The translations under genes and the position numbers were made by a program. A DNA stretch of 64,000 bases, from the NCBI GenBank assembly GCA_964401115.1, contig CAYNXD010000052.1, forward strand, positions 14 to 64,013, in the 5' to 3' direction. The DNA comes from an uncultured Candidatus Poseidoniales archaeon (GTDB lineage: Archaea; Thermoplasmatota; Poseidoniia; Poseidoniales; Thalassarchaeaceae). A model generated the notes under the pieces. That model made no database searches and was not told the DNA's origin. It worked only from the letters and a program-made list of their open reading frames with translations. This document shows, piece after piece, positions 1-14,933 of the stretch; the stretch's first letter is position 1, and every line of letters starts with the position of its first letter.

Positions 1-2316
1 CCTCGTGGATTAGCTGCACTTCGCAAACTATCCAGCAAAGTTAGAGAAAGTGCACCCTGTCTTATTTTTGTTAATTCTAGAAATGCTGCAGAAACTGTGG
101 CTCAGAGATTATCTAAATTAGATTCGAATCTAAATATAGGGGTTCATCATGGCTCTCTGGCTGCAGAAACGCGACATGAAATGGAGGCAGCGCTTCAGGA
201 TGGGGCCCTTCATGCACTAGTTTGTACATCAAGCCTAGAATTAGGAATTGATATAGGGACAATAAAGCAAGTTCACCAAATTCAATCTCCACGCGCTGTT
301 GATAGATTGCTACAAAGAGTTGGGCGTTCAGAACATATTCTAGGTGGAACTTCTCGTGGAATGCTACTCTGTTGGGAAGTTGATGATATCGCAGAGGGCG
401 CGGTAATTGCTCGGCGTGCTATGGCAAACGAACTGGAAGGAATTGAATGGCGAAGAAAGCCTCTTTCAGTTGTAGCAAATCAATTAGTCTTAACCTCTAT
501 TTCTGAAAAAATAATACCTCTTGATTCAGGTGCCACCCTAATACAACGGGCAACATTATTTACAGAAACTGATGAAAATGAGGTTCTAGAAATATTACGA
601 ATCCTTGACGACAGAAGATTAGTTCGTCTTGTAGAAAAGCCACGTGATACTGATCCATTAACTTGGCCGCCAATATTATGGGAGAAGGCTGCACAGAATT
701 GTTCGGATTTACCTGATAAAAGGCCAACCGTTGAAGAATTCGAAAAAATTACTGACAAGCAGTTGGCAATTTGGTCTAAATCACTGCGAGCATCACTCCC
801 CGATAATCTACAAAATGGTTGGTTCAGTTCCGGTTCTAGAAGTAGAAACTACATGCTAAATCATCTCAGTATGATTGCTGATGAAACTAGGTATTCAGTG
901 AGAGACGCTGTGACCCGTAAGGCACTTGGAAATGTCGATGAAACATTTGTCCTTTCACTCGATTCATCGGGGGGTGAAGAAGATGGAAATCCTAGAAGGT
1001 TCGTAATGGCAGGAAGAACTTGGGAAATTGTAGATGCTGATCCTGAGAAAAGCGAGCTGCTCGTAAGTCCAATCTCAGATCAGAGTTCAGCTCCAGTTTG
1101 GGCTGGTGAATTACCCCCAGTACCCGGAGAAGTAGCCAGAGAAGTGGGGAACCTAAGAAGAGCCATTGCTGACGAGCACGGTTGGATAATTGGAGAACAA
1201 AAAAATGAAGATTGGGGGGCAAAAGTTAACGCCTGGGTTTCTAGATTACCCCCCCAAAAGCCTGTTTCTGATTATCCACTTTCAGAAAATTCGTTGGGAG
1301 CCCTTTCCCAAAGTGTAGCAGAACACTTGGATGCTACTGGTTCAATACCTGATGCAAGATTATTGACTATTGAATCTAGACGTGATGCTTTGGTACTAAA
1401 TTGCTGCCATGGAAGTAAAGTTAACTCTGCCTTGGCTCATTTTATTCAGGCAATGGCTTCGACAATTGATGGGAAAAGTGGTAGAGTAATAGTTGACCCA
1501 TATAGAATTACATTCCAAGTCCCTGCTCTGACTGCAGATGGAATTGTAAAATGGATGACTGACACTCCACCTGAAGCCCTGCGAGATGTAATGTGGATGA
1601 CAATTCCAAACGGTAGGCAACTTAGAGCAAGGTTAGTACAGGTCTGCAAAACCTTTGGAATTCTTCATCGAGGAATTGACCCTCGTAGGGTAAATTTACA
1701 GGGAATTATCAACAGATATCGAGGAACTGTTGTTCTAGATGAAGCGTTGGATAAATTATTCCACGATCGAATGGATGTTGATGGCACCATATCCCTACTA
1801 GAAGCAATTCAAGCAGGAGCTGTGAGAATCGAACAAACTGCCTCGGGAGCGCTTGGGATTTCGCCAAAAAGTGAGCGGGACCTGCTTTTACCTAATTGGT
1901 CTGATGCCGAGGTAAAACTTAGACTTGAAGAGAGATTGATGAATGAAAGAGCTGTTCTAATTTGCCTTGCTTGTCATTCTCGTATGAGGACACGTGTAGC
2001 CATGTATGGAATCAAGCACCATCACTGTGAATGTGGAGGTACAATGTTAGCAGCAGCACGAGAAGGTCTGGAAGAGCGTCTGAGTGAATGGGTTGCATCT
2101 GAAGATAATACTGTTCAATCAAGGATGGAACGAAATGCCCAACTAGTTCGTCAAAGGGGAATAGAGGCTCTAATTTGCCTAATGGCGAGAGGAATCGGAG
2201 AAGAGACTGCTACCCGAATCTTGAGAAAGGTACCAAAAGGAGAACGAGAATTAATGATGCGAATAATCCATGAGGCTGAACTTAATTATGCTAGAACTAG
2301 GCGATTTTGGGGTTAA
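1..2316 (+). CDS. lhr: Lhr-type ATP-dependent helicase (DEAD/DEAH superfamily 2), 5' partial; C-terminal domain with Cys/His zinc-finger
   Basis: Reading frame is open from base 1 (no stop before the listed GTG at 97), so the gene starts upstream of the window. Helicase C-terminal motif HHGSLAAETRHEMEAAL...LVCTSSLELGIDIGTI...LQRVGRSEH (motifs IV-VI). C-terminal CLACHSRMRTRV...HHHCECGG zinc-finger-like cluster. Confidence 0.75.
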   Translation, partial: PRGLAALRKLSSKVRESAPCLIFVNSRNAAETVAQRLSKLDSNLNIGVHHGSLAAETRHEMEAALQDGALHALVCTSSLELGIDIGTIKQVHQIQSPRAVDRLLQRVGRSEHILGGTSRGMLLCWEVDDIAEGAVIARRAMANELEGIEWRRKPLSVVANQLVLTSISEKIIPLDSGATLIQRATLFTETDENEVLEILRILDDRRLVRLVEKPRDTDPLTWPPILWEKAAQNCSDLPDKRPTVEEFEKITDKQLAIWSKSLRASLPDNLQNGWFSSGSRSRNYMLNHLSMIADETRYSVRDAVTRKALGNVDETFVLSLDSSGGEEDGNPRRFVMAGRTWEIVDADPEKSELLVSPISDQSSAPVWAGELPPVPGEVAREVGNLRRAIADEHGWIIGEQKNEDWGAKVNAWVSRLPPQKPVSDYPLSENSLGALSQSVAEHLDATGSIPDARLLTIESRRDALVLNCCHGSKVNSALAHFIQAMASTIDGKSGRVIVDPYRITFQVPALTADGIVKWMTDTPPEALRDVMWMTIPNGRQLRARLVQVCKTFGILHRGIDPRRVNLQGIINRYRGTVVLDEALDKLFHDRMDVDGTISLLEAIQAGAVRIEQTASGALGISPKSERDLLLPNWSDAEVKLRLEERLMNERAVLICLACHSRMRTRVAMYGIKHHHCECGGTMLAAAREGLEERLSEWVASEDNTVQSRMERNAQLVRQRGIEALICLMARGIGEETATRILRKVPKGERELMMRIIHEAELNYARTRRFWG

Positions 2317-4040: not shown

Positions 4041-5405
4041 TCAAGTCCAGTATTTTTTTTCTGGAGCTGGGCGCAATACTGTCATAGACTCAACATCATT
4101 CAAACCCATCACTTCAAGTAAATTACCTACAAGATATAGACTACCAAACGCCAATATGGGTTGAGATGGGTCACTTTTAGCAATCTCCAAGGCTCTAGTG
4201 AGTGCATCTTCTGGTAATGGGTGTTGCTCAATTTTTGATAGGACACCCTGCGCTTGTAATTCTGACACAATTTCTGCTGAAGGTATTGCATCCCTACGTC
4301 CCTTTTGAGGTTCTGTAACTATGATATGTTCCACCTGACCTTCTACGATTAATTCAATTAATGGATTTAGAAATTCTACAATATCATTTTGTGGAGTACT
4401 GCCAATAATTATTATTCCCGGAGTTGGATGAATATCACCTTCCATCTGAACTCTCAATTGTTCGCAGACTTTCTCCATTCCAGATGGATTGTGCGCTGCA
4501 TCAAGAAGTATAGGCACACCTTCGTATTCTAACCACTGCATTCGCCCAGGCCATACTGTATGCATTACTGCACTGGAAACCATTTCTTTCGGTTCAGCAT
4601 TTGTCATAGGTGATGAAAAGTATCTAAGTGTTATTGCAGCTAATCTAGCAGCATCCTGTTGAAAGGATGACCAACCATCGAATCCCTCGATATCAGGGAC
4701 TGGGCGATGGCTCTCATCGGCTCTAGTGAATGGCACGGTCATTGCTCGATCATACCTCCACCAACAAGCATTCGCGGGGATCTGTACTGCATCTTCAATG
4801 GCCTTTCTTACAGATGCGTCGTAGTTCCATCTTGCAATGAAAAGGCCCGATGGGCGTGCAATAGCAGCCTTTTCTGCTGCTATTTCTCCCAAAGTTTCAC
4901 CTAAAACATCAGTGTGCTCTAGGGCAATTTCAGTCAAAACACAACAATCTGCTTGACATAAACGAGTTGCATCTAACCTACCACCTAAACCCGTTTCAAT
5001 AACTGCTCTATCGATTCCTGCATCTGCAAAAGCAACCATAGCTACAAGAAAAGTGGCCTCGTAATAGGATGGTAACGTAACTGGTTCAATTTCAGCAGCA
5101 TCTTTTACCTTGGATAAGACTCTATCAAAATTGTCTGAAGAAATTGGAACACCGTCGATTCTAACCCTTTCCTCAACAAAGCAGAGATGTGGTGAAGTGA
5201 ATAAACCACAACTTACTCCTGAGAGGGAAAATGAATTTGAAAGAATTACACAAAGGGAACCTTTACCGTTACTACCTGCAACATGAATACAGGGGAATTT
5301 CATTTGAGGCATTCCCAATCTAGAAAGAAGAATTGAAGTTACTTCCAAGCCCGGGCGCATTCCTAAACTACGCAATCCTTCGAGCCATTCTCTAATTTCG
5401 GTCAC
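4041..5405 (-). CDS. folC: folylpolyglutamate synthase / dihydrofolate synthase (Mur ligase family)
   Basis: P-loop HVAGSNGKGS followed by GLFTSPHL, characteristic of FolC/Mur ligases. Confidence 0.8.
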   Translation of the reverse strand: MTEIREWLEGLRSLGMRPGLEVTSILLSRLGMPQMKFPCIHVAGSNGKGSLCVILSNSFSLSGVSCGLFTSPHLCFVEERVRIDGVPISSDNFDRVLSKVKDAAEIEPVTLPSYYEATFLVAMVAFADAGIDRAVIETGLGGRLDATRLCQADCCVLTEIALEHTDVLGETLGEIAAEKAAIARPSGLFIARWNYDASVRKAIEDAVQIPANACWWRYDRAMTVPFTRADESHRPVPDIEGFDGWSSFQQDAARLAAITLRYFSSPMTNAEPKEMVSSAVMHTVWPGRMQWLEYEGVPILLDAAHNPSGMEKVCEQLRVQMEGDIHPTPGIIIIGSTPQNDIVEFLNPLIELIVEGQVEHIIVTEPQKGRRDAIPSAEIVSELQAQGVLSKIEQHPLPEDALTRALEIAKSDPSQPILAFGSLYLVGNLLEVMGLNDVESMTVLRPAPEKKYWT

Positions 5406-5471: not shown

Positions 5472-7643
5472 ATGACCGGTGAAGGTCGAATGGCTCTGCT
5501 CAAAGATGCGATGGTCGGACAATGGCGTTCGATGGGGGGTATGGCAGGTATGTTCATTGGTACAATTTTGCTTGCAATTTACATTCAACCATTTTGGGAT
5601 CGGCCCGAATCTAGGGCTTTTGGGGAAGCGGGAACAACAAAAGTAGGGTTGATTGGATTAGAGTTTCTTCTTATTCTAATTTTTACTGGTGTGATTATCT
5701 GGCTTGCTAAACGGGGATTGCAGGTAATTATCAAATGGGCAGTGTTAATCATTCTATGGATTTCACTATCTTATTGTCTAATTCCACTATCTTCCTACGC
5801 TCTTGACACCCCCCAACCGACTGTAGAATTCAGAACTGAAGAACATTCCAGCTATGATTTCCACTTTACAGACTTAGATGCTAGTAGTTTCATTGTTGAT
5901 AACCAAACGCACTTGATTAAGTATAGCGAAGCAAGTGGAATTGATAGTGGCGTACAAGCAAACCAAATTTGGTCATGGCCTCTTGATATGGGCAATCAAT
6001 CATTCTCGGCACACCCAATTACTATTGTTGATAATATTGATTCTTACATATATTGTGACCAAGTTCGTTGGGTGAAATTAGATAAAAATGATGGAAGCGT
6101 CATTTCAACTCACGATGTAAATTGTAATGCAGGTTTTTCTACTAGTGAATATGACTGGGGAATAATTGATACTCTGCTTCAAAAAATTGATCCATTCCAC
6201 CCAGATGTTCCAAATCACTCATGGACATACAAACTTCCTGAAGAATTTCTTGGAAAAGATTTCTTGAGAGGTGTTCTACTCAGTGATGAGGAAATGTTGC
6301 TTGTTTCAGATGATTGGGCTGGTATCATCGAAATACCTGATGGACCACACAACCTAGATCGAGGTGATACAGTAAATGTAACTGTAAAGTGGGAAGTAAT
6401 TCCTCCAAATGGAGAGTTATTCTCTACATCAGCATGGGGATATTCGCCTTGGAGTAATCAAAATTGGTTGTCAGAAAACCCACCAAGTGAAAGGCTATTG
6501 ATGCTAGGTACCACAAATGGGGACCTCAATGGCTATCTTTGGGATGGAAATGAAATGGAGGAGGAAGTTCGTATCAAATTCAATGAGAGAGATGCATTTG
6601 ATGCGGAAATACAAGGGATTCTATTAGCCGATGATCAGAGAGATGGTCGTGTAGATTTATGGGTTGCTTCCGGAGGAACAACAAGGATGTTTTCGGGTTG
6701 GACTATGGTTGAGTCTCTAAGTATTGAAGGACCTTTTGATACCGGCCCAATAAACATGGTACTACATACAATAGATGCACCGAATTGGGATGAGTTGGGA
6801 ATAGAAGATGGGGTCCTAACCTCCTATAGCATTAATTCATCTCAGAGTGCAATAATTGCAACTCCAGTCAATGAACCAGCATATATTCTACAAGATTCAA
6901 CAGGATATTGGATACCTATTTACTGGTCACAGATTATTGCGATGATTGCAGCTACCGGGTTGATGGTTGCTCTAACAATTAGGCCTGAATGGTATGTAGT
7001 AAATACTACTGGAATACTCACAGGAGCCGGAGTAATTACAATTATTGGGGTAAGTTTTGTCCCAACTTTGATGATAATTTTCATGGTAATAACCGCATTC
7101 TATGATTGGTATGCGGTTTACAAATCAAAACATATGCTAGATCTGGCTGATACTATGATTGGATTAAAACTCCCCATTCTTTTAGTTGCACCACAAGATA
7201 AAGAATACTCGTTCCTAGAGGAAGGAAATGATACAATGAGTAGGATGGATGATGCACCAGTTGTACTTTCAGAATCTAGCCAAGGCGACTCATCCGAGAT
7301 ATCTGTCGCAGCCCCACCTCCACACATACCAAAGAAAAGTGGAGGGGATGCCCTTTTCATGGGACTTGGAGACGTAATCTTCCCTGGAATGTTGGTAATT
7401 TCAGCTCTAACTTTCTTACCAGGGGATGGAACAATATTAGGAATTAGTGACCCTATGTTTGTTGCAATCGGGACACTAATTGGTGGTTTAATGGGGTATA
7501 CAATTCTAATGAGTTATGTTGCTATGGGGAAACCTCAAGCAGGATTACCACTACTCAATGGAGGTAGTATTCTAGGGTACTTAATTTCCGGAATAATAGC
7601 AGTTGGTTCTGCTGCTATTTCATTTGGAATAACTATTTTTTGA
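5472..7643 (+). CDS. presenilin / signal-peptide-peptidase-like (A22) intramembrane aspartyl protease with large N-terminal ectodomain insertion
   Basis: YD motif in TM (ITAFYDWYAVYKSKHML), long acidic cytoplasmic loop, then GxGD motif FMGLGDVIFPGMLV (SPP-like GLGDIV.PG), then QAGLPLL in the PAL position. N-terminal 3-4 TM helices plus ~330-aa hydrophilic insert. Confidence 0.65.
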   Translation: MTGEGRMALLKDAMVGQWRSMGGMAGMFIGTILLAIYIQPFWDRPESRAFGEAGTTKVGLIGLEFLLILIFTGVIIWLAKRGLQVIIKWAVLIILWISLSYCLIPLSSYALDTPQPTVEFRTEEHSSYDFHFTDLDASSFIVDNQTHLIKYSEASGIDSGVQANQIWSWPLDMGNQSFSAHPITIVDNIDSYIYCDQVRWVKLDKNDGSVISTHDVNCNAGFSTSEYDWGIIDTLLQKIDPFHPDVPNHSWTYKLPEEFLGKDFLRGVLLSDEEMLLVSDDWAGIIEIPDGPHNLDRGDTVNVTVKWEVIPPNGELFSTSAWGYSPWSNQNWLSENPPSERLLMLGTTNGDLNGYLWDGNEMEEEVRIKFNERDAFDAEIQGILLADDQRDGRVDLWVASGGTTRMFSGWTMVESLSIEGPFDTGPINMVLHTIDAPNWDELGIEDGVLTSYSINSSQSAIIATPVNEPAYILQDSTGYWIPIYWSQIIAMIAATGLMVALTIRPEWYVVNTTGILTGAGVITIIGVSFVPTLMIIFMVITAFYDWYAVYKSKHMLDLADTMIGLKLPILLVAPQDKEYSFLEEGNDTMSRMDDAPVVLSESSQGDSSEISVAAPPPHIPKKSGGDALFMGLGDVIFPGMLVISALTFLPGDGTILGISDPMFVAIGTLIGGLMGYTILMSYVAMGKPQAGLPLLNGGSILGYLISGIIAVGSAAISFGITIF

Positions 7644-7686: not shown

Positions 7687-8970
7687 ATGTTAGGCATCAA
7701 TATGTTCAGAGAGCACGCAGATATCATCCGTGCTGATCACGATAAACGTGGGCTACCTCATGACCAAATTGAAGAAGTGATTAGTCTAGATAATGATTGG
7801 AAAAAGGCCCGCTACGATGCAGACCAATTAAGAAGAGTAAGAAATAAGGCGGCAAGGGGAATTGCGGATGCAAAGAAGGCTGGAAATGATGAAAAAATGC
7901 GAGACATACTAGCAGAAGTTGCATCCCTTGGAGAGCAAATAGATGCCCTTGGAGTCGATGCAGATAATTTAGAGAGAAGTAGGGATGCATTGAGAATGAA
8001 AATACCGAATATTCTTCACGAAAGTGTTCCTATAGGTGATAATGATGAGGGAAATACCTTACACAGCAAACATGGGAACAAAAGGGACTATACTTTCGAA
8101 CCAAAGACACACAATCAATTAATTGATGAAAACAAATGGGTAGACTTACCAAGAGCTGCTAAGATTGCTGGTAGTCGGTTCTATTTTCTGAAAGGGGATT
8201 TAGCTAGAATGGAATTGGCATTACAACAGTATGCAGTTGATTTCTTGACTGATAGAGGATATACCTTCGTTCAACCACCTGTAATGATGAATCGCACTGC
8301 ATACGAAGGTGTAACCGATTTAGCCGATTTTGAGACCGTCATGTATAATGTTCAACCTGAAGGATTCTACACAATCGCAACCAGCGAGCACCCCCTGACT
8401 GCTATGTTCATGGACGAAGTCATGGAACCATCGATGTTACCAATGAAGATGGTAGGGGTTTCACCGTGTTTCAGAAGAGAAGTTGGAGCACATGGTCAAT
8501 CTGATAAAGGAATATGGCGAGTTCACCAATTCACCAAGATCGAACAAATAATTATCAGCAAACCCGAAGACTCTTGGGAATTACATGAAGAGTTGTTATC
8601 AAATTGCATTGAGTTATGGAACTCACTGGATCTTCATTATGAAGTTGTTAATATCTGTACAGGTGATATGGGCACTGTCGCATCAAAAAAGTATGACTTA
8701 GAGGCATGGTTACCTGGTGTAGGTACCTACAAGGAAGTCGTGTCTTGTTCAAATTGCACCGATTATCAAGCTAATAGACTAAAAATGAGATTTCGTACCT
8801 CTGATGGAAATGAATCTGTTCACACTCTGAATTCTACTGCCGTCGCTACTAGTAGAGCATTGGTGGCAATTATTGAACAGAATCAAACAGAAAATGGAGA
8901 AGTGGAAATTCCTCAGGTATTACAAACCTACATGCAGGGGCAAAAAACATTGCAATCTTGCAATTGGTAA
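7687..8970 (+). CDS. serS: seryl-tRNA synthetase
   Basis: N-terminal coiled-coil arm typical of SerRS; class II motifs FRREVGAHGQSDKGIWRVHQF; SD-like GGAGGTGA 7 nt upstream of ATG. Confidence 0.85.
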   Translation: MLGINMFREHADIIRADHDKRGLPHDQIEEVISLDNDWKKARYDADQLRRVRNKAARGIADAKKAGNDEKMRDILAEVASLGEQIDALGVDADNLERSRDALRMKIPNILHESVPIGDNDEGNTLHSKHGNKRDYTFEPKTHNQLIDENKWVDLPRAAKIAGSRFYFLKGDLARMELALQQYAVDFLTDRGYTFVQPPVMMNRTAYEGVTDLADFETVMYNVQPEGFYTIATSEHPLTAMFMDEVMEPSMLPMKMVGVSPCFRREVGAHGQSDKGIWRVHQFTKIEQIIISKPEDSWELHEELLSNCIELWNSLDLHYEVVNICTGDMGTVASKKYDLEAWLPGVGTYKEVVSCSNCTDYQANRLKMRFRTSDGNESVHTLNSTAVATSRALVAIIEQNQTENGEVEIPQVLQTYMQGQKTLQSCNW

Positions 8971-8987: not shown

Positions 8988-9497
8988 TTATTCTGACTCT
9001 TCTATTTCAATCAAAATTGCTCCCTGATTCACTTGAGTTCCTACCTCGCAGTGAATTGTAGTTACAACCCCATCCACTGGAGAGCAAATTCTATTCTCCA
9101 TTTTCATAGCCTCAAGAATTAGTAGAGTTTGTCCTGCATTAACTGATTCTCCAACTGAAGATAATAGTGATAGAATCTTACCTGGCATTGGTGAGGTTAA
9201 TCCACCTGATTGTTCAAATGTACTTTGTGCGCCAGCTTCCACAACTGATACTCTTGATGTATGTCCGTTGTGATGAATCCACCATACATCGCCAACTTTT
9301 ACGAGAACTATATTTTCATCCCCTTCTCCTCTGTTGAGAGTTATTTCCTCATTTATGCCAGTAGTAGAGATGTTCCACTCTTCTACATTAACTGGCTCTC
9401 CATCAACAGAAACTCGCAAAGCAGTATATCCAACATCTGATTGTACTGCAGCAACCGTCCATTTAGAATCATCTTGATGATTAATGAAATCCTTCAT
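8988..9497 (-). CDS. biotin carboxyl carrier protein (biotinyl domain) of acyl-CoA carboxylase
   Basis: Biotin attachment motif EAMKMEN near C-terminus. Confidence 0.8.
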   Translation of the reverse strand: MKDFINHQDDSKWTVAAVQSDVGYTALRVSVDGEPVNVEEWNISTTGINEEITLNRGEGDENIVLVKVGDVWWIHHNGHTSRVSVVEAGAQSTFEQSGGLTSPMPGKILSLLSSVGESVNAGQTLLILEAMKMENRICSPVDGVVTTIHCEVGTQVNQGAILIEIEESE

Positions 9498-9506
9498 ATT
9501 AACACC

Positions 9507-11048
9507 TCATGGAAAACTACGACTAATTGATAAAAATGGATTATATGGATCAAAAGAATCTGATTGAGAAATTGAATGAGCTGTTAAATGCAGACCTGCT
9601 TTTTCGCCAACCGCTGCTGCAATCACAGCCACCTTTTCATCACCACATGAAGACCATCCGTCGGGCCATTCCCTCTCAATAAAATCGGTGGTTGTTGCAC
9701 CAGATGCAAATTGCGGATTGGTTATCACATCCTTAAGGAATTCAATGTTAGTAGTGACCCCTAGAACTATGAAATCACTCAAGGCACGACGCATTCTTTC
9801 AATTGCGGAATCTCTATCAGATGCATGAACTATCAATTTTGCCAGCATTGGGTCGAATTCAATTCCTGCTTTATCCCCCTCCCTAACACCGGAGTCAAGA
9901 CGAATTCCTGGACCTTCAGGTGGCCTCCAAATTCTCAGCGGGCCCGTTGCAGGCAGGAAACCATTAGCTGCATCCTCGGAGTAAATTCTCGCCTCAATCG
10001 CCCACCCCCTAGGGGTAACTTGCTCTTGAGAAATGCTCAAGGGCAGGCCTGCGGCTATTCTCAATTGCTCTTGAACTAAATCAACTCCTGTAATGAATTC
10101 AGTTACAGGGTGTTCCACCTGTAGCCTAGTATTCATCTCCAGGAAGAAAAATTCATTGCCCGATTGAAGAAATTCAACTGTACCTGCACCGACATAGTTA
10201 ACTGCTCTTGCAGCGCTTATCGCCGCCTCCCCCATAGCATTACGTAATTCAGGAGTTATTGCAACGCTTGGTGCTTCTTCTATTACCTTCTGATGCCTTC
10301 GCTGAATACTACACTCACGCTCAAGAAGGTGTATTGCGCCTCCATGAGTGTCGCAGAGGAGTTGGATCTCAATATGACGCGGCGCAACGATTCTTCTCTC
10401 AATGTATACAGTATCATCACCAAATGAAGACAGTGCTTCTCGCTGTGCTGCGAGATATGATGACTCTAATTGTCCTGGAGAATCGACTTCCCTCATCCCT
10501 TTACCACCCCCTCCTGCAGAGGCCTTTAACAAAACAGGATAACCAATATCACCAGCCAACTGATGAAGTTCATTCACGGTCTCGGAGAGTGAGTTTCCTG
10601 ACGCCAACTCTGCGCCAGGAACGAGAGGCACTTCTGCATCAAGCATTAGACGTCGAGAACGAACTTTATCTCCCATGGAATCTATCGCCTTTGCAGGTGG
10701 CCCTATCCAAATTATGCCATTTGCCCCGACTAATTCAGCAAAATCAGACCTTTCAGAAAGAAATCCGTACCCTGGATGAAGCGCATCTGCACCAGACGAA
10801 ATACATGCATTGATAATCGCAGTATGTGAAAGATAAGTGGATGAAAGATCGGTCCCCTCAAGATGAACTGAATCATCAGCTAAATCTACATGCATTGCAT
10901 CTATATCTGAATCATTGAAAATTGCAACAGTAGCAAGACCCATTTCCTTACATCCTCGAATTATTCGACATGCAATTTCACCCCTGTTAGCAATCAACAC
11001 CTTACTGAACTTGAATGGAGCTTCAGAAATCCATACAGGGAGAGTCAT
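9507..11048 (-). CDS. accC: biotin carboxylase subunit of acyl-CoA carboxylase
   Basis: N-terminal KVLIANRGEIACRIIR, ATP-grasp core, length 513 aa. Confidence 0.85.
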   Translation of the reverse strand: MTLPVWISEAPFKFSKVLIANRGEIACRIIRGCKEMGLATVAIFNDSDIDAMHVDLADDSVHLEGTDLSSTYLSHTAIINACISSGADALHPGYGFLSERSDFAELVGANGIIWIGPPAKAIDSMGDKVRSRRLMLDAEVPLVPGAELASGNSLSETVNELHQLAGDIGYPVLLKASAGGGGKGMREVDSPGQLESSYLAAQREALSSFGDDTVYIERRIVAPRHIEIQLLCDTHGGAIHLLERECSIQRRHQKVIEEAPSVAITPELRNAMGEAAISAARAVNYVGAGTVEFLQSGNEFFFLEMNTRLQVEHPVTEFITGVDLVQEQLRIAAGLPLSISQEQVTPRGWAIEARIYSEDAANGFLPATGPLRIWRPPEGPGIRLDSGVREGDKAGIEFDPMLAKLIVHASDRDSAIERMRRALSDFIVLGVTTNIEFLKDVITNPQFASGATTTDFIEREWPDGWSSCGDEKVAVIAAAVGEKAGLHLTAHSISQSDSFDPYNPFLSISRSFP

Positions 11049-11053
11049 TTATT

Positions 11054-11953
11054 TCACTCCTCATTCCAATTTGGCGAGCGCTTCTCTAGGAACGAGGCAA
11101 GGCCTTCTTGACCCTCTTCAGAACCACGCATCGCGCTTGTCTTGTCAAGAGTCCATGTCCGCAACTCTTCGTCAGTACCGGACCACCTGTCAAATGTGAG
11201 TGTTAGTTTCTTAGCCTCTGCAACCGCCATTGGTCCAGTCGTCAATACTTCATCAATTACCTTTTGGATTTCTCCTTCACTTACAGGGAAGGGCCTGTCA
11301 TCTTCCACCCAATAGGAATTGATGAGACCAACATGCTTTGCCTCAGCCTCACCTATTCGGCCTGCTAACATTGAAAGACGACGAAATTCGGCACTACCAA
11401 CTTTCCTGTAAACGTAAGGCCCAATGACTGCAGGTAAGATACCTAACTTTCCTTCAGACAATGCTATTTTGATATGTTGTCCTGAACCAATAACGTGATC
11501 GAGGCAGGCAATAAGACCAACCCCCCCTCCGAGAGCAACCCCCTGAACCTTGCCTATTGTGAAACATGGGTGGGACCAGAGGCTGCTGAACAACCTATCA
11601 AGTCTTTCCGAATCAGCACGGTTCTCTTCCGGACTCTTTGCACCGGCATCCCGCATCATATTGATGTCCGCGCCTGCACAGAAATGTTTGCCTGCCCCCC
11701 TCAATACTATGACCCTGAAATAAGGTTGTCCAGATGCATCTTTGAGATTTCCACGCTCACCAACTGAACGCTCTCTAGTCCAATCCAATATAGAGATGAT
11801 TTCACTAATGAGTTGAATATTTAGTGCATTATACACATCTTCACGCTTTAGTGTCAAGTGACCAATTGGCCCCTCAATTCTAAGAGAGCAAAGACTCGTT
11901 TCTGGCTTCGAATCTCCAATTGCATAATTTGACATCTCAATTGCTCCTTTCAC
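11054..11953 (-). CDS. enoyl-CoA hydratase/isomerase (crotonase) family, possibly methylglutaconyl-CoA hydratase
   Basis: Crotonase oxyanion-hole motif [17 protein letters not shown]; 4-bp overlap with upstream carboxyltransferase suggests co-translation. Confidence 0.7.
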
Positions 11954-13611
11954 ATTCTGAAAATTCCATATTCTGTATCTGGTAGTGGTGCATTTAATGC
12001 TGCTGAAATACTCAAACCTAACACATCACGTGTATCCCTAGGATCAATGATACCATCATCCCAAATTCTAGCAGTAGCATAGTATGGAGATCCTTCGGTA
12101 TCATATTTTTCAAGAATTGGCCTCTGGAACTCATCCAATTCTTCACCTTCCATAGGTGACTTTCCTTCCCTTGCCCTCTGATCCTGTTTTACAGTAGTCA
12201 AAACACTAGATGCCTGAGGGCCACCCATTACTGAAATTCTAGAGTTCGGCCACATGAATAGGAACCGAGGGTCGTACCCCCTACCACACATAGCATAGTT
12301 CCCGGCACCGTGAGAACCACCGATAATTACTGTGAATTTCGGTACTGGGGCACAAGCTACCGCTGTAACCATCTTTGCACCGTCTTTAGCAATCCCACCT
12401 GCTTCATATTCACTACCTACCATAAATCCAGTAATATTCTGTAAGAAGATTAGTGGGGTTCCTCTCTGACCACATAACTCAACAAAATGTGCTGCCTTCA
12501 ATGCGGATTCACTAAACAGAATTCCATTATTTGCAATGATTCCAACAGGGTATCCATGAATTCTTGCAAATCCACAAACTATTGTTGTCCCGTAACGTGA
12601 CTTGAATTCATGGAAGCGAGAACCATCTACAATCCTTGCTATTACTTCCCTAACATCGTACGGCATACGGTTGTCATTTGGAATAATTCCCAACAATTCT
12701 TCAGAATCATAATGAGGAGGTTCGGGGGTGGTAATATCTAGTGCAACTTTGTATGGAGGCGGGAGGTTCTCGACAATATTTCTTACAATTCTAAGTGCTT
12801 CTTCTTCGTCTTCGGCAAAATGATCTGCAACACCTGACTTAACTGTATGAATCTCTGCACCACCAAGTTCCTCAGCAGTCACCTCTTCCCCTGTTGCAGC
12901 TTTGACCAATGGGGGGCCACCTAGGAAAATTGTACCATTACCCTTCACAATGATTGATTCATCACTCATAGCAGGCACATAAGCACCCCCTGCGGTGCAT
13001 GAACCCAAAACTGCGGATATTTGTGGAATGCCTTTCCCACTCATTACTGCTTGATTGAAGAATATCCTTCCGAAGTGCTCCCTGTCTGGAAAAACTTCAT
13101 CCTGCATAGGTAGGAATGCGCCGCCTGAATCAACCAAATATATGCACGGCAGATGGTTCTGCTCGGCTATTTTCTGAGCCCTGATATGTTTTTTTACAGT
13201 TGTTGGGTAGTAAGACCCCCCTTTGATTGTGGCATCGTTAGCAACAAACATACATTCTCTACCATGGACCATTCCAATCCCTGTAATTACTCCAGCACTA
13301 TGCGCATTCCCATCATAGAGCCCGTTTGCTGCAAGTGTGCTCAACTCAAGAAATGCCGTCCCAGCGTCACAAATGGCAGATATTCTCTCTCTAGCCAACA
13401 TTTTTCCGCGACTGCGGTGGCGCGCAACGTATTTGCCACCGCCACCCTGCTGAACCGTCTCTATTCGGCCCTTCAGCGCTGCAATTAGCGCCTTGTTTTC
13501 CTCTAGATTAGCATCATATTGTTCATCGCCAGAACGCACCGAAGTAGGTAGTCTATCCATGTCGACCCATAGGGTCGAAAACAAACAGGTGCTTGAACGG
13601 TGCGGCTTCAA
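11950..13611 (-). CDS. acyl-CoA carboxylase carboxyltransferase (beta) subunit, methylcrotonyl-/propionyl-CoA carboxylase type
   Basis: N-terminal segment [36 protein letters not shown] matches the carboxyltransferase beta-subunit signature. True start may be the internal Met (MDRLPTS, ~13560). Confidence 0.8.
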
Positions 13612-14933
13612 ACACCCAACATTAGCCTTCCTAAGTCCCTTAAGCCTGGAGCCAAACCAACTGTTAGTAAACCAAGAACAACAAGTAGTCGCAAGTGAGA
13701 TTGTCGTTGTTCAAATCTCCATTCTGCAAAGAATAATACAATTACAAATGCCAAAAACATCTTCACAACTAAAAATCCCCAACCACCTCCGGCACCACTC
13801 TCAGTACCTCCTGCTAATTCCATTACAAAGGCTGAAAGAACATGCTTCTCGGAATATCCGAAAACATCAACCCCCACCCAAGAGGCAAAACCATCTACAA
13901 GTTGTCCATAAACCGCAAGCAAAACTATTGGTGTTGAAAAGGCAGCACTACGAACCAATTTCTCATAATCTTCATGTTCATCGCCCTCAAAACTCTCCCA
14001 CTGCTCTAAAGTTACCCCTTCATCAAGAATTCCTGGGATCTGCCCTTTTTCAGTTAAGAAAGAATATGCTTCCTTTCCACGATGATGTAGCATGGAAACA
14101 AACAAAATTGGAAAGGCAAGGACGACCAATGCCGGCCATAATACCAATTCATCCGTACTGGATTGTATTTCGGCAAATTGTAGCAATTTTGCTGTGACTA
14201 AAAGACATGCACCAATACCAGACAAAAGTATGCTGAGCTCCAACACCCCCCAGTCTGCAATTTTTTGTTTCAAAGTTAAAACATCTGATTCAAATAAGAA
14301 ATAGCAAATTAGTGGAACCATCACAAATAACCCCACATTTTGAGCTGAGGTGAATTCGTAAAACAAAAATAAATGGCTGGAAATAATGATTACTAGAGTG
14401 AGTAATGGAACTAGCAATTTATTTTCCGGGCCTCGACCCCAATTTTTCATTAAATAAACAATAATCCCCGACAACACGATCCAACCTGCTGTTTGAAAAT
14501 GGATTAATGGTGATACAAATAAGGAATCAACATCCGATGGGAAAAGTCGAGCGTCCTCAGCTACTTCCACCAATACTGCCCAAAGTACCCAAGGCAATAA
14601 TGAGTAAAGCATTCTTTCATTGTCCGAAACCCCCAACTCCCGCAACCACGCAGAAAGTGAGACAATGAAAGCAACGAGAAGTATGGAGTAAGCGGCAGTA
14701 TCTACTGGATTGTAACTTGAATCACCACCACCCTCGCCTAGAATTGGCTCTACAAAGTTCAAATCGACTATGTCCCAAATAAACCAAAAGTCCGCATAAA
14801 GACCCAAAAGATATCCAATTCCCGGTAAAGAAAGACCTATACCTATAATTGTAAAAGCCACTAATTCATAATTAGCAAAATTACCGAGTGAATAATTCTT
14901 AGGTGGAGATTCGCCATCGGACATTTCCATCAA
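13608..14933 (-). CDS. polytopic membrane protein of unknown function
   Basis: Multiple hydrophobic segments; no recognisable catalytic motif. Confidence 0.4.

What the first reader, a model, noticed from the sequence alone, without database searches (positions are those of the whole stretch)
5472..7643. Presenilin/SPP-like intramembrane protease carrying a ~330-aa inserted ectodomain
The YD motif, a long acidic cytoplasmic loop, the GLGD...PG motif and a PAL-position segment occur in the canonical order of A22 proteases. However, the protein is 723 aa, with a large hydrophilic domain inserted after the first TM helices. Archaeal presenilin homologs are normally ~300 aa, so this looks like a substrate-recruiting or regulatory ectodomain fused to the protease core.
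Basis: partly seen in the sequence, partly recalled or inferred. Interest (0 to 1): 0.6.

Follow-up and report, generated by a model that had tools for sequence, protein, structure and literature searches.

The report
Archaeal presenilin with built-in propeller ectodomain
This gene encodes an archaeal presenilin-type membrane-embedded protease with a ~370-residue seven-bladed β-propeller inserted into an outward-facing loop, an arrangement shared across Marine Group II archaea and lost in one subgroup, which probably acts as a built-in substrate gate or receptor.

Summary
ORF 5472..7643 (+) encodes a 723-aa PSH-family (MEROPS A22) intramembrane aspartyl protease. It scores 218.6 bits against NCBIfam NF041679 (cut-off 125). 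D545 and D634 align without gaps to the catalytic D162 and D220 of the solved M. marisnigri PSH.

An insert of ~370 aa (residues ~111-480) splits the fold between TM3 and TM4. With the insert removed in silico, the protein aligns end-to-end to the PSH model.

AlphaFold models the insert confidently (pLDDT 88, pTM 0.88) as a seven-bladed β-propeller. It has no Pfam or PDB sequence relatives. In 1.84 billion representative proteins it occurs essentially only inside this protease.

Enriched N-glycosylation sequons, even cysteine counts and the presenilin topology all place it outside the cell.

The propeller form sits at one syntenic locus (FolC-like | PSH | SerRS) in at least 80 species-level Poseidoniales genomes of both families. 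One Thalassarchaeaceae subclade carries a short ortholog at the same locus, which is a secondary loss.

The function is inferred, not shown: a cis-encoded substrate gate or receptor, analogous to nicastrin, the RseP PDZ filter or the SPPL2 PA domain.

Verdict: a new variant of a known kind, of moderate interest.

The parts
5472..7643 (+). Complete gene for the 723-aa PSH-family intramembrane aspartyl protease with an inserted propeller (stop codon included)
   Evidence: ORF list. PF06550 E=6.8e-46. NF041679 equivalog, 218.6 bits against a cut-off of 125. PDB 4hyc E=1.6e-30.
5472..5801 (+). Cytoplasmic N-terminal tail plus TM1-TM3 (aa 1-110), the N-terminal third of the protease fold
   Evidence: Three hydrophobic helices. 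On its own this fragment matches NF041679 positions 2-84 (E=6.7e-5). It aligns with the N-termini of the short orthologs.
5802..6911 (+). Inserted ectodomain (aa 111-480). A seven-bladed β-propeller (strands at aa ~121-462) with short linkers to TM3 and TM4
   Evidence: AF2 models: pLDDT 85-94 in the full-length model; insert-only model pLDDT 88, pTM 0.88, with 27-28 strands. Foldseek matches propellers only. No Pfam or PDB sequence hit. Found only within PSH proteins. Sequons are enriched and cysteine counts are even.
6054..6056 (+). C195, the probable disulfide partner of C218
   Evidence: Invariant among the 20 closer relatives. Cysteine in 76 of 102 long forms. Cysteine counts per insert are even in 99 of 102.
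6123..6125 (+). C218, an invariant cysteine of the propeller
   Evidence: Conserved in 102 of 102 long forms.
6624..6662 (+). Blade-6 loop LADDQRDGRVDLW. It contains the conserved D387 and G392 and looks FG-GAP-like by eye
   Evidence: D387 and G392 are conserved in at least 95% of 102 sequences. Variants in other lineages include ADCCxGGxxD and D-x-D-x-S-G-x-x-D-L-L. Pfam gives no support for FG-GAP.
6912..7160 (+). TM4-TM6 (aa 481-563), including the first catalytic motif
   Evidence: Helices in the AF2 model. Aligned to PSH residues 108-204.
7101..7106 (+). YD motif. D545 is the first catalytic aspartate
   Evidence: Aligns without gaps to D162 of M. marisnigri PSH, which mutagenesis shows to be catalytic (PMC2947513). 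Conserved in 102 of 102 long forms.
7194..7346 (+). Variable, acidic cytoplasmic loop between TM6 and TM7 (aa 575-625)
   Evidence: 10 D+E against 4 K+R. Low conservation (0.43) and variable length. pLDDT below 50.
7362..7388 (+). GLGDVIFPG motif. D634 is the second catalytic aspartate
   Evidence: Aligns to GMGD220 of PSH. Conserved in 102 of 102 long forms.
7548..7556 (+). P693-L-L695, the PAL-position motif before TM9
   Evidence: Aligns to PPL in PSH within the conserved PQAGLP(L/P)LNGG block. Invariant in close relatives and at least 95% conserved in long forms.
4041..5405 (-). Divergently transcribed FolC/Mur-ligase-like gene, the conserved upstream syntenic neighbour
   Evidence: Mur_ligase_C hit. 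Present upstream in 71 of 71 loci that have room for it, and next to the short orthologs.
7687..8970 (+). Seryl-tRNA synthetase, the conserved downstream syntenic neighbour. Used here as a species-tree proxy
   Evidence: Pfam Seryl_tRNA_N plus tRNA-synt_2b. Present downstream in 71 of 72 loci. Tree.

Best explanation
Shown. The gene encodes an intact presenilin/PSH-type GxGD intramembrane aspartyl protease. Its nine-helix core is interrupted once, between TM3 and TM4, by a folded seven-bladed β-propeller. The first and last strands of the propeller share one blade, so the whole domain plugs into what is otherwise a loop of a few residues. The domain is an orphan at sequence level. It is restricted to the PSH orthologs of Poseidoniales (Marine Group II archaea), is ancestral there, and was excised secondarily in one Thalassarchaeaceae subclade.

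Inferred from the presenilin topology, sequon enrichment and cysteine parity. The propeller faces the outside of the cell and is probably glycosylated and disulfide-bonded. Linkers of roughly 10 and 18 residues hold it directly over the extracellular face of the protease.

Inferred by analogy. The TM3-TM4 loop adjoins the TM2/TM3 region through which presenilin substrates are thought to enter. The propeller therefore most likely controls which single-pass (type I) membrane proteins reach the active site. It could exclude substrates that still carry a bulky ectodomain, or dock a specific juxtamembrane stub. Either way it would be a cis-encoded functional counterpart of nicastrin in γ-secretase, the PDZ tandem of RseP, or the PA domain of SPPL2. 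Catalysis itself does not need the propeller, because orthologs that lack it keep all the catalytic motifs.
For: Family and catalytic register: with D162/D220 mutagenesis in PMC2947513.

Insert position and clean presence or absence.

Propeller fold.

Orphan status and restriction to PSH: there is no Pfam or PDB sequence hit. Only 31 representatives were found among 1.84 billion proteins, and all hits of at least 688 aa carry both halves of the PSH core.

Conservation: D545 and D634 are conserved in 102 of 102 long forms. The insert evolves faster than the core but keeps invariant W, G, C and D positions.

Extracytoplasmic location: sequons are 5.6 observed against 2.9 expected, with 97% of sequences above expectation. 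Cysteine counts are even in 99 of 102 inserts. Mean net charge is about -46.

Orthology and loss: the synteny is identical for long and short forms. No second copy occurs nearby. Short forms are monophyletic and nested among long-form lineages, in 100/100 and 99/100 bootstraps on the SerRS tree and also in the core tree.

Precedents for gating ectodomains: PMC7728848 and PMC12043953. Substrate routes near TMD2/3 and TMD2/6: PMC13507816.
Against: - No substrate, activity or structure has been determined for any member.
- The pose of the propeller relative to the core is unknown. The TM core had low pLDDT in the full-length model, and neither coordinates nor PAE could be inspected.
- The outward topology rests on homology, not measurement.
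- The natural loss in an abundant subclade shows the domain is dispensable in at least some cellular contexts.
- The neighbouring genes are housekeeping genes and give no functional hint.
- The propeller surface evolves quickly (24-27% identity between the two families). That fits a co-evolving ligand but also fits a loosely constrained role.
Confidence: 0.5

Rival explanations
1. Anchoring or scaffolding module. The propeller binds the cell envelope (for example the S-layer or surface glycans) or a partner protein. It positions or stabilises the protease without selecting substrates.
For: β-propellers are generic protein-interaction platforms, and the best fold matches include scaffolds such as BamB, RACK1 and PROPPINs. 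The domain is dispensable in one subclade. The fast-evolving surface fits co-evolution with lineage-specific envelope components.
Against: The domain is inserted into the protease fold next to the proposed substrate entry helices. It is not appended at a terminus, where a simple anchor would be expected. It never occurs as a stand-alone protein or in any other architecture, which argues for a role tied to the protease.
Confidence: 0.2
2. Ligand-sensing regulatory switch. The propeller plugs or allosterically restrains the active site until an extracellular ligand or ion binds. That would turn the protease into a one-component receptor for regulated intramembrane proteolysis.
For: A conserved acidic loop in blade 6 (D387, G392; LADDQRDGRVDLW) resembles Ca2+-binding FG-GAP loops by eye. 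Short linkers hold the domain over the core. Negative regulation by extramembrane domains is known for RseP (PMC7728848).
Against: The FG-GAP resemblance has no statistical support. The loop is replaced by Cys-Cys or Ser-Gly variants in other lineages. No signalling partner or anti-sigma-like gene lies nearby.
Confidence: 0.15
3. The insert is cytoplasmic, because the protein has an SPP-like inverted topology. It would then act on the cytosolic side, for example by recruiting tail-anchored or type II substrates.
For: SPP has the opposite orientation to presenilin (PMC2947513). Pfam names the family 'SPP'. No topology experiment exists for this protein.
Against: The closest characterised relative is PSH, which has presenilin-like topology. 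The TM2-TM3 loop is net +3, consistent with a cytoplasmic location. N-glycosylation sequons are enriched 1.9-fold in the insert but not in the TM6-TM7 loop, and cysteine counts are even in 99 of 102 inserts. Both are signatures of extracytoplasmic domains.
Confidence: 0.05
4. The insert is an artefact or non-functional junk: a mis-assembly, a fusion of adjacent genes, or a decaying insertion.
For: None positive. The possibility arises only because the protein is 2.4 times the usual length.
Against: One uninterrupted ORF is found in more than 100 independent assemblies, at 35-90% identity and with conserved length. The fold is predicted confidently. Invariant residues persist across both families. 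The halves of the fold on either side of the insert are in frame and complete.
Confidence: 0.02

Closest known systems
PSH / MCMJR1 of Methanoculleus marisnigri (PDB 4HYC; NCBIfam NF041679; Pfam PF06550; MEROPS A22)
   Same: Same family and the same nine-helix core. The YD and GxGD aspartates are in register with D162 and D220. It shares the PxL motif inside the conserved PQAGLPxLNGG block and the long TM6-TM7 loop. The core is about 34% identical.
   Different: PSH is 301 aa, with only a short TM3-TM4 loop. Here a ~370-aa β-propeller is inserted at that loop (profile position ~84/85), and the TM6-TM7 loop is longer and acidic.
Short PSH orthologs of a Thalassarchaeaceae subclade (for example P0160, 352 aa, GCA_045559735.1)
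   Same: Positional orthologs, with the same flanking genes. They are 52-57% identical over 93-99% of the insert-deleted core and keep all the catalytic motifs.
   Different: They lack the propeller entirely and have 7-8 extra residues in the TM7-TM8 loop. They derive from a propeller-bearing ancestor by loss.
γ-Secretase (presenilin plus nicastrin)
   Same: A presenilin-type catalytic core combined with a large extracellular domain positioned over it. Nicastrin acts as a gatekeeper against substrates with large ectodomains (PMC7728848). This is the proposed functional analogy.
   Different: Nicastrin is a separate single-pass subunit with a different fold, and it works within a four-protein complex. 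Here the ectodomain is a β-propeller encoded in cis inside the protease chain. No homology to nicastrin was detected.
RseP (site-2 protease) with its periplasmic PDZ tandem
   Same: [quoted passage not shown]
   Different: An unrelated catalytic class (a zinc metalloprotease, M50) and an unrelated inserted fold (PDZ rather than propeller).
SPPL2a/b/c with an N-terminal PA domain
   Same: Members of the A22 family that carry a luminal or extracellular domain influencing substrate recognition (PMC12043953).
   Different: The PA domain sits at the N-terminus, before TM1, and has a different fold. SPPLs have the inverted (SPP-type) topology and are eukaryotic.
Generic seven- and eight-bladed β-propellers (WD40/RACK1, PROPPIN/Atg18, BamB/PQQ-like)
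   Same: The overall fold. Foldseek probability is 1.0, with TM-scores of 0.45-0.58.
   Different: Identity is only about 10% and rmsd is 6.5-10 Å. There is no significant Pfam or PDB sequence match, even with profiles. It cannot be assigned to any propeller family.

Membership tests
PSH / presenilin-SPP family (NF041679, PF06550, MEROPS A22) | Score above the curated family cut-offs | tested here: met
   NF041679: 218.6 bits against a cut-off of 125, rising to 228.7 bits over profile positions 2-279 of 281 once the insert is removed. PF06550: 157.5 bits against 23.9, or 173.4 bits with the insert removed.
PSH / presenilin-SPP family (NF041679, PF06550, MEROPS A22) | YD and GxGD motifs with both catalytic aspartates in register | tested here: met
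   D545 aligns to D162 and D634 to D220 of PSH without gaps. These residues are catalytic by mutagenesis (PMC2947513). Both are invariant in 102 long forms.
PSH / presenilin-SPP family (NF041679, PF06550, MEROPS A22) | PAL-type motif in the C-terminal region | tested here: met
   P693-L-L695 aligns with PPL of PSH inside PQAGLPxLNGG. It is conserved in relatives. The middle residue differs from the eukaryotic PAL, as it also does in PSH.
PSH / presenilin-SPP family (NF041679, PF06550, MEROPS A22) | Nine transmembrane helices, with the two aspartates on adjacent helices joined by a long loop | tested here: met
   Hydropathy and the AF2 helices give 3 + 6 helices. The aspartates lie on the sixth and seventh helices, separated by the aa 575-625 loop. 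The TM part of the model has low confidence.
PSH / presenilin-SPP family (NF041679, PF06550, MEROPS A22) | Intramembrane proteolytic activity | not testable with these tools
   This needs biochemistry. It is inferred only from the intact catalytic motifs.
γ-Secretase-type complex (nicastrin-like gatekeeper) | An ectodomain homologous to nicastrin, supplied as a separate subunit | tested here: not met
   The insert is a β-propeller encoded in cis. It has no sequence or fold match to nicastrin. This is an analogy only.
SPPL2-type A22 proteases | An N-terminal PA (protease-associated) domain preceding TM1 | tested here: not met
   No PA-domain hit. The extra domain lies between TM3 and TM4 and is a propeller.
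β-Propeller fold | Four-stranded blades arranged radially, with closure by the terminal strands | tested here: met
   The confident model has 27-28 strands in seven groups of four. The N-terminal strand completes the last blade. All top Foldseek hits are propellers.
Named propeller sequence families (WD40, PQQ/BamB, FG-GAP/VCBS, Kelch) | A significant match to the family's repeat profile | tested here: not met
   The window insert has no Pfam family at E of 10 or less. For 22 diverse inserts the best E-value is 0.014, and no family is hit by more than 2 members. A profile search against PDB sequences found nothing.

The most novel reading that the evidence does not exclude
Poseidoniales archaea independently evolved a 'one-chain γ-secretase'. 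In this reading a presenilin homolog carries, fused in cis, an extracellular β-propeller that does the job nicastrin does in trans: it measures or docks the ectodomain stub of type I membrane proteins before intramembrane cleavage. The natural propeller-less orthologs in one Thalassarchaeaceae subclade would then be a ready-made evolutionary knockout. Their substrate repertoire, or their upstream sheddase, should differ.
Probability: 0.35. Interest if true: 0.7.

Novelty: new variant of a known kind. Interest (0 to 1): 0.5.

Why it matters
Presenilin-type proteases are studied intensively because of γ-secretase and Alzheimer's disease. The archaeal PSH is the minimal model enzyme, yet the natural substrates and regulation of archaeal homologs are unknown.

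A single-chain presenilin homolog that carries its own extracellular domain would be a simple system for studying how an ectodomain controls substrate access. It comes with natural orthologs lacking that domain, which serve as built-in controls.

It would also mark a conserved cell-surface feature of Marine Group II archaea. These are among the most abundant planktonic archaea, they have not been cultured, and their surface biology is largely unknown.

Databases currently label these proteins simply as 'PSH'. That label hides half of the protein.

Tried and rejected
- **Paralogy.** I considered that the long and short forms might be paralogs in the same genomes. This is rejected. Both occupy the same syntenic slot, and no second copy lies in the window or in the flanks of any locus.
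- **Recent gain.** I considered that the window's lineage gained the insert recently. This is rejected. The long form occurs in both families, and the short clade is nested among long forms.
- **FG-GAP/VCBS or another named propeller family.** The blade-6 loop looks FG-GAP-like by eye, but Pfam gives no support across 22 diverse inserts and the PDB profile search found nothing.
- **Intein or mobile-element insert.** No such domains were found, and the insert is a propeller.
- **First tree attempt.** It was distorted by wrong ORF picks for L017-L019, and was redone.
- **First SerRS rooting.** It was ineffective, and was redone correctly.
- **Literature.** Four searches found no description of this architecture. 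The most relevant survey, Raut, Glass & Lieberman 2021 (Proteins 89:232), is not held and could not be checked.
- **P0041.** This weak non-PSH hit from the exhaustive search is a trypsin-like peptidase. It matches one generic blade motif repeatedly and says nothing about the origin of the domain.
Full report
**1. Observation**

The window contains one uninterrupted ORF at 5472..7643 on the + strand, 723 aa from ATG to TGA.

- YD at aa 544-545.
- A variable acidic loop at aa 575-625, with 10 D+E against 4 K+R.
- GLGDVIFPG at aa 631-639.
- PLL at aa 693-695, inside the block PQAGLPLLNGG.

The statistical support is strong:
- Pfam PF06550, E=6.8e-46.
- NCBIfam equivalog NF041679 'presenilin family intramembrane aspartyl protease PSH', 218.6 bits against a curated cut-off of 125.
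- The solved Methanoculleus marisnigri PSH (PDB 4HYC, 301 aa), E=1.6e-30.

In the gap-free alignment, D545 falls on D162 and D634 on D220. Alanine substitution of either residue abolishes MCMJR1 activity (PMC2947513).

**2. Anatomy**

Hydropathy and the AlphaFold secondary structure give three helices (aa ~20-110), a hydrophilic stretch (aa ~111-480), then six helices. The insert is therefore about 370 aa, not about 330, and lies between TM3 and TM4.

When I deleted it in silico, the remaining 357 aa aligned in one stretch to positions 2-279 of the 281-position PSH model, at 228.7 bits. A natural 352-aa ortholog gives virtually the same result (222.5 bits, positions 2-279). The N-terminal 112 aa alone match positions 2-84. 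So the insert splits one canonical protease fold at a single loop.

**3. The insert is a seven-bladed β-propeller with no sequence relatives**

The insert has no Pfam hit at E of 10 or less. A profile of 18 inserts found nothing among PDB sequences. Scanning 22 diverse inserts individually gave no significant family, with a best E-value of 0.014.

AlphaFold nevertheless models it confidently. In the full-length model the insert has pLDDT 85-94, while the helices are poorly resolved because the alignment is shallow. An insert-only model from a more diverse alignment reaches mean pLDDT 88 and pTM 0.88. It has 27-28 β-strands in seven groups of four, and an N-terminal strand completes the last blade. 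The two ends of the domain are therefore adjacent, which is what insertion into a short loop requires.

Foldseek against the PDB returns only β-propellers: BamB, RACK1/WD40, PROPPINs, Gβ and DDB1-BPB. Probability is 1.0, but TM-scores are only 0.45-0.58, rmsd is 6.5-10 Å and identity is about 10%. This is a generic fold match with no close relative.

A blade-6 loop (LADDQRDGRVDLW) resembles FG-GAP Ca2+ loops by eye, and reads D-x-D-x-S-G-x-x-D-L-L in other lineages. That resemblance has no statistical support.

**4. The domain exists only inside this protease**

An exhaustive HMMER scan of 1.84 billion representative proteins with the insert profile found 31 hits. Every hit of at least 688 aa carries both the N-terminal and the C-terminal halves of the PSH core. 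Those I scanned against Pfam are PF06550 proteins.

Most of the remaining hits are short proteins of 81-351 aa. One is a 556-aa protein and one a 351-aa protein that carry only the C-terminal half of the core. One weak hit is a trypsin-like peptidase that matches a single generic blade motif repeatedly.

**5. Distribution and evolution**

Close homologs at 35-90% identity all cover the full 723 aa. Sources name them Candidatus Thalassarchaeaceae.

A scan of one genome per GTDB species found 473 related loci. The best 80 all encode the long form. They include named Thalassarchaeaceae (MGIIb) and Poseidoniaceae or Poseidonia (MGIIa).

In 102 distinct long forms, both catalytic aspartates and C218 are invariant. 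The insert evolves faster than the core, with a mean top-residue frequency of 0.41 against 0.72-0.76. It still keeps W167, G208, C218, P256, G323, G350, D387 and G392 in at least 95% of sequences.

Searching with the insert-deleted core revealed more than 100 short PSH proteins of 345-381 aa. They are 52-57% identical over 93-99% of the core and also come from Thalassarchaeaceae MAGs.

These short forms are not paralogs. They sit in the same gene order as the long form in the window: Lhr helicase, AAA kinase, dCMP deaminase, FolC-like, PSH, SerRS, then biotin carrier, biotin carboxylase, enoyl-CoA hydratase and carboxyltransferase. The FolC-like | PSH | SerRS arrangement holds in 71 of 71 and 71 of 72 loci with enough flank, MGIIa included. 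It also holds for the most divergent long form, which lies on a 3.0-Mb contig. No second copy lies in the window or in the flanks of any locus.

In the short orthologs, TM3 runs into TM4 through a few residues.

A core-only NJ tree rooted on M. marisnigri PSH places the short forms as one clade nested among long forms. A tree of the adjacent SerRS, rooted on named Poseidoniaceae, gives the same picture. The short-form loci are monophyletic in 100 of 100 bootstraps. They are nested at least three nodes deep among long-form lineages in 99 of 100.

The parsimonious history is one gain at or before the base of Poseidoniales and one clean loss in a Thalassarchaeaceae subclade. The trees are distance-based, and only four short-form loci (two lineages) were in the SerRS tree. 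The direction of change is well supported, but the exact sister group is not.

**6. Which side of the membrane**

No experiment exists for this protein. Three lines point outward:
- **Presenilin/PSH topology (established knowledge).** The N-terminus and the TM6-TM7 loop are cytoplasmic, so the loops after TM1, TM3, TM5 and TM7 face outward. The TM2-TM3 loop is net +3, which agrees.
- **N-glycosylation sequons.** They are enriched in the insert, at 5.6 observed against 2.9 expected from composition-preserving shuffles. In 97% of 102 sequences the count exceeds expectation. The cytoplasmic loop shows no such enrichment.
- **Cysteine counts.** They are even (2, 4, 6 or 8) in 99 of 102 inserts, as expected for disulfides.

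The domain is also strongly acidic, with a mean net charge of about -46.

**7. Mechanism (inferred)**

The propeller is tethered by linkers of roughly 10 and 18 residues. From general knowledge, a seven-bladed propeller is about as wide as a nine-helix bundle. It should therefore sit directly on the extracellular face of the protease.

The candidate substrate routes in presenilin run between TMD2/TMD3 or TMD2/TMD6 (PMC13507816). This is next to the anchor point of the insert.

Extramembrane domains that control access are documented in three other systems:
- Nicastrin acts as a gatekeeper against large ectodomains (both in PMC7728848).
- The PA domains of SPPL2 proteases influence substrate recognition (PMC12043953).

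I therefore consider a cis-encoded substrate gate or docking platform the most likely function, at about 0.5. The rivals are:
- An envelope or partner anchor (0.2).
- A ligand-controlled switch (0.15).
- An inverted topology with a cytoplasmic propeller (0.05).
- An artefact or junk sequence (0.02).

The neighbouring genes are housekeeping genes and do not help.

**8. Comparison and novelty**

Membership of the PSH/A22 family is met on every testable criterion. Databases already name these proteins PSH.

What appears to be undescribed is the architecture. Four full-text searches combined presenilin or intramembrane protease with Poseidoniales, Marine Group II, or β-propeller plus archaea. None found a paper describing this architecture. 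One relevant survey (Raut et al. 2021) could not be read.

The propeller is not homologous to nicastrin, PA or PDZ domains, so the resemblance to those systems is functional only. I rate this a new variant of a known kind, of moderate interest. It is not a new enzyme class. It is a conserved, order-wide, single-chain 'presenilin plus ectodomain' with natural propeller-less orthologs. That makes the long-standing question of how ectodomains gate presenilin-type proteases testable in a simple system.

Noticed in passing
L081 5001-6059; L082 5001-6146 (short orthologs), compared with window aa 648-662: The short, propeller-less PSH orthologs carry 7-8 extra residues in the outward-facing TM7-TM8 loop, for example PETGAEISTIWGIPMYGD against PGDGTILGISD. 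This may be a compensatory change after the propeller was lost.
   Followed up: no
window 6624-6662 and the equivalent position in P0021, P0022, P0023, P0024, P0025: The conserved blade-6 loop reads ADDQRDGRVD in the window's lineage. In several other lineages it is ADCCxGGxxD, with two adjacent cysteines. In MGIIa-like sequences it is D-x-D-x-S-G-x-x-D-L-L. These may be alternative ways of rigidifying one loop, by metal site or by vicinal disulfide.
   Followed up: partly
L085 (ENA ERZ26167216, contig of 3,002,195 bp): The most divergent propeller-bearing PSH (P0025, 779 aa) lies on a 3.0-Mb contig, which seems large to me for a Marine Group II genome. The gene order is the same, except that a TrmB/MarR regulator gene sits between SerRS and the biotin carrier gene.
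   Followed up: no
window 8988-14933 (- strand): Immediately downstream of SerRS lies a cluster of biotin carrier protein, biotin carboxylase, enoyl-CoA hydratase and carboxyltransferase. It looks like a methylcrotonyl-CoA or acyl-CoA carboxylase set. The cluster is conserved next to PSH across the order.
   Followed up: no
L081 7387-7974; L082 7534-8085: Genomes with the short PSH have a DUF4126 membrane-protein gene between SerRS and the biotin carrier gene. In the window those two genes are only 17 bp apart.
   Followed up: no
window 97-2316 (+): An Lhr-type helicase gene (DEAD_assoc, Helicase_C, WH_Lhr). The listed ORF is 739 aa. Orthologs are 993-1100 aa, and the Helicase_C match begins at residue 7 of the ORF. 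The gene evidently starts upstream of the window, so only its C-terminal part is present.
   Followed up: no
window 4041-5405 (-): The divergently transcribed upstream neighbour matches only the Mur_ligase_C domain in Pfam (E=7e-10). It looks like a divergent FolC-type or Mur-type ligase of unclear specificity. It sits next to PSH in all 71 loci that have enough upstream sequence.
   Followed up: no
P0041 (628 aa, from the exhaustive search): This trypsin-like serine peptidase has a repeat region that matches one blade motif of the propeller profile six times (profile positions 224-258, E=6e-7). It was the only hit over 400 aa that lacked the PSH core.
   Followed up: partly
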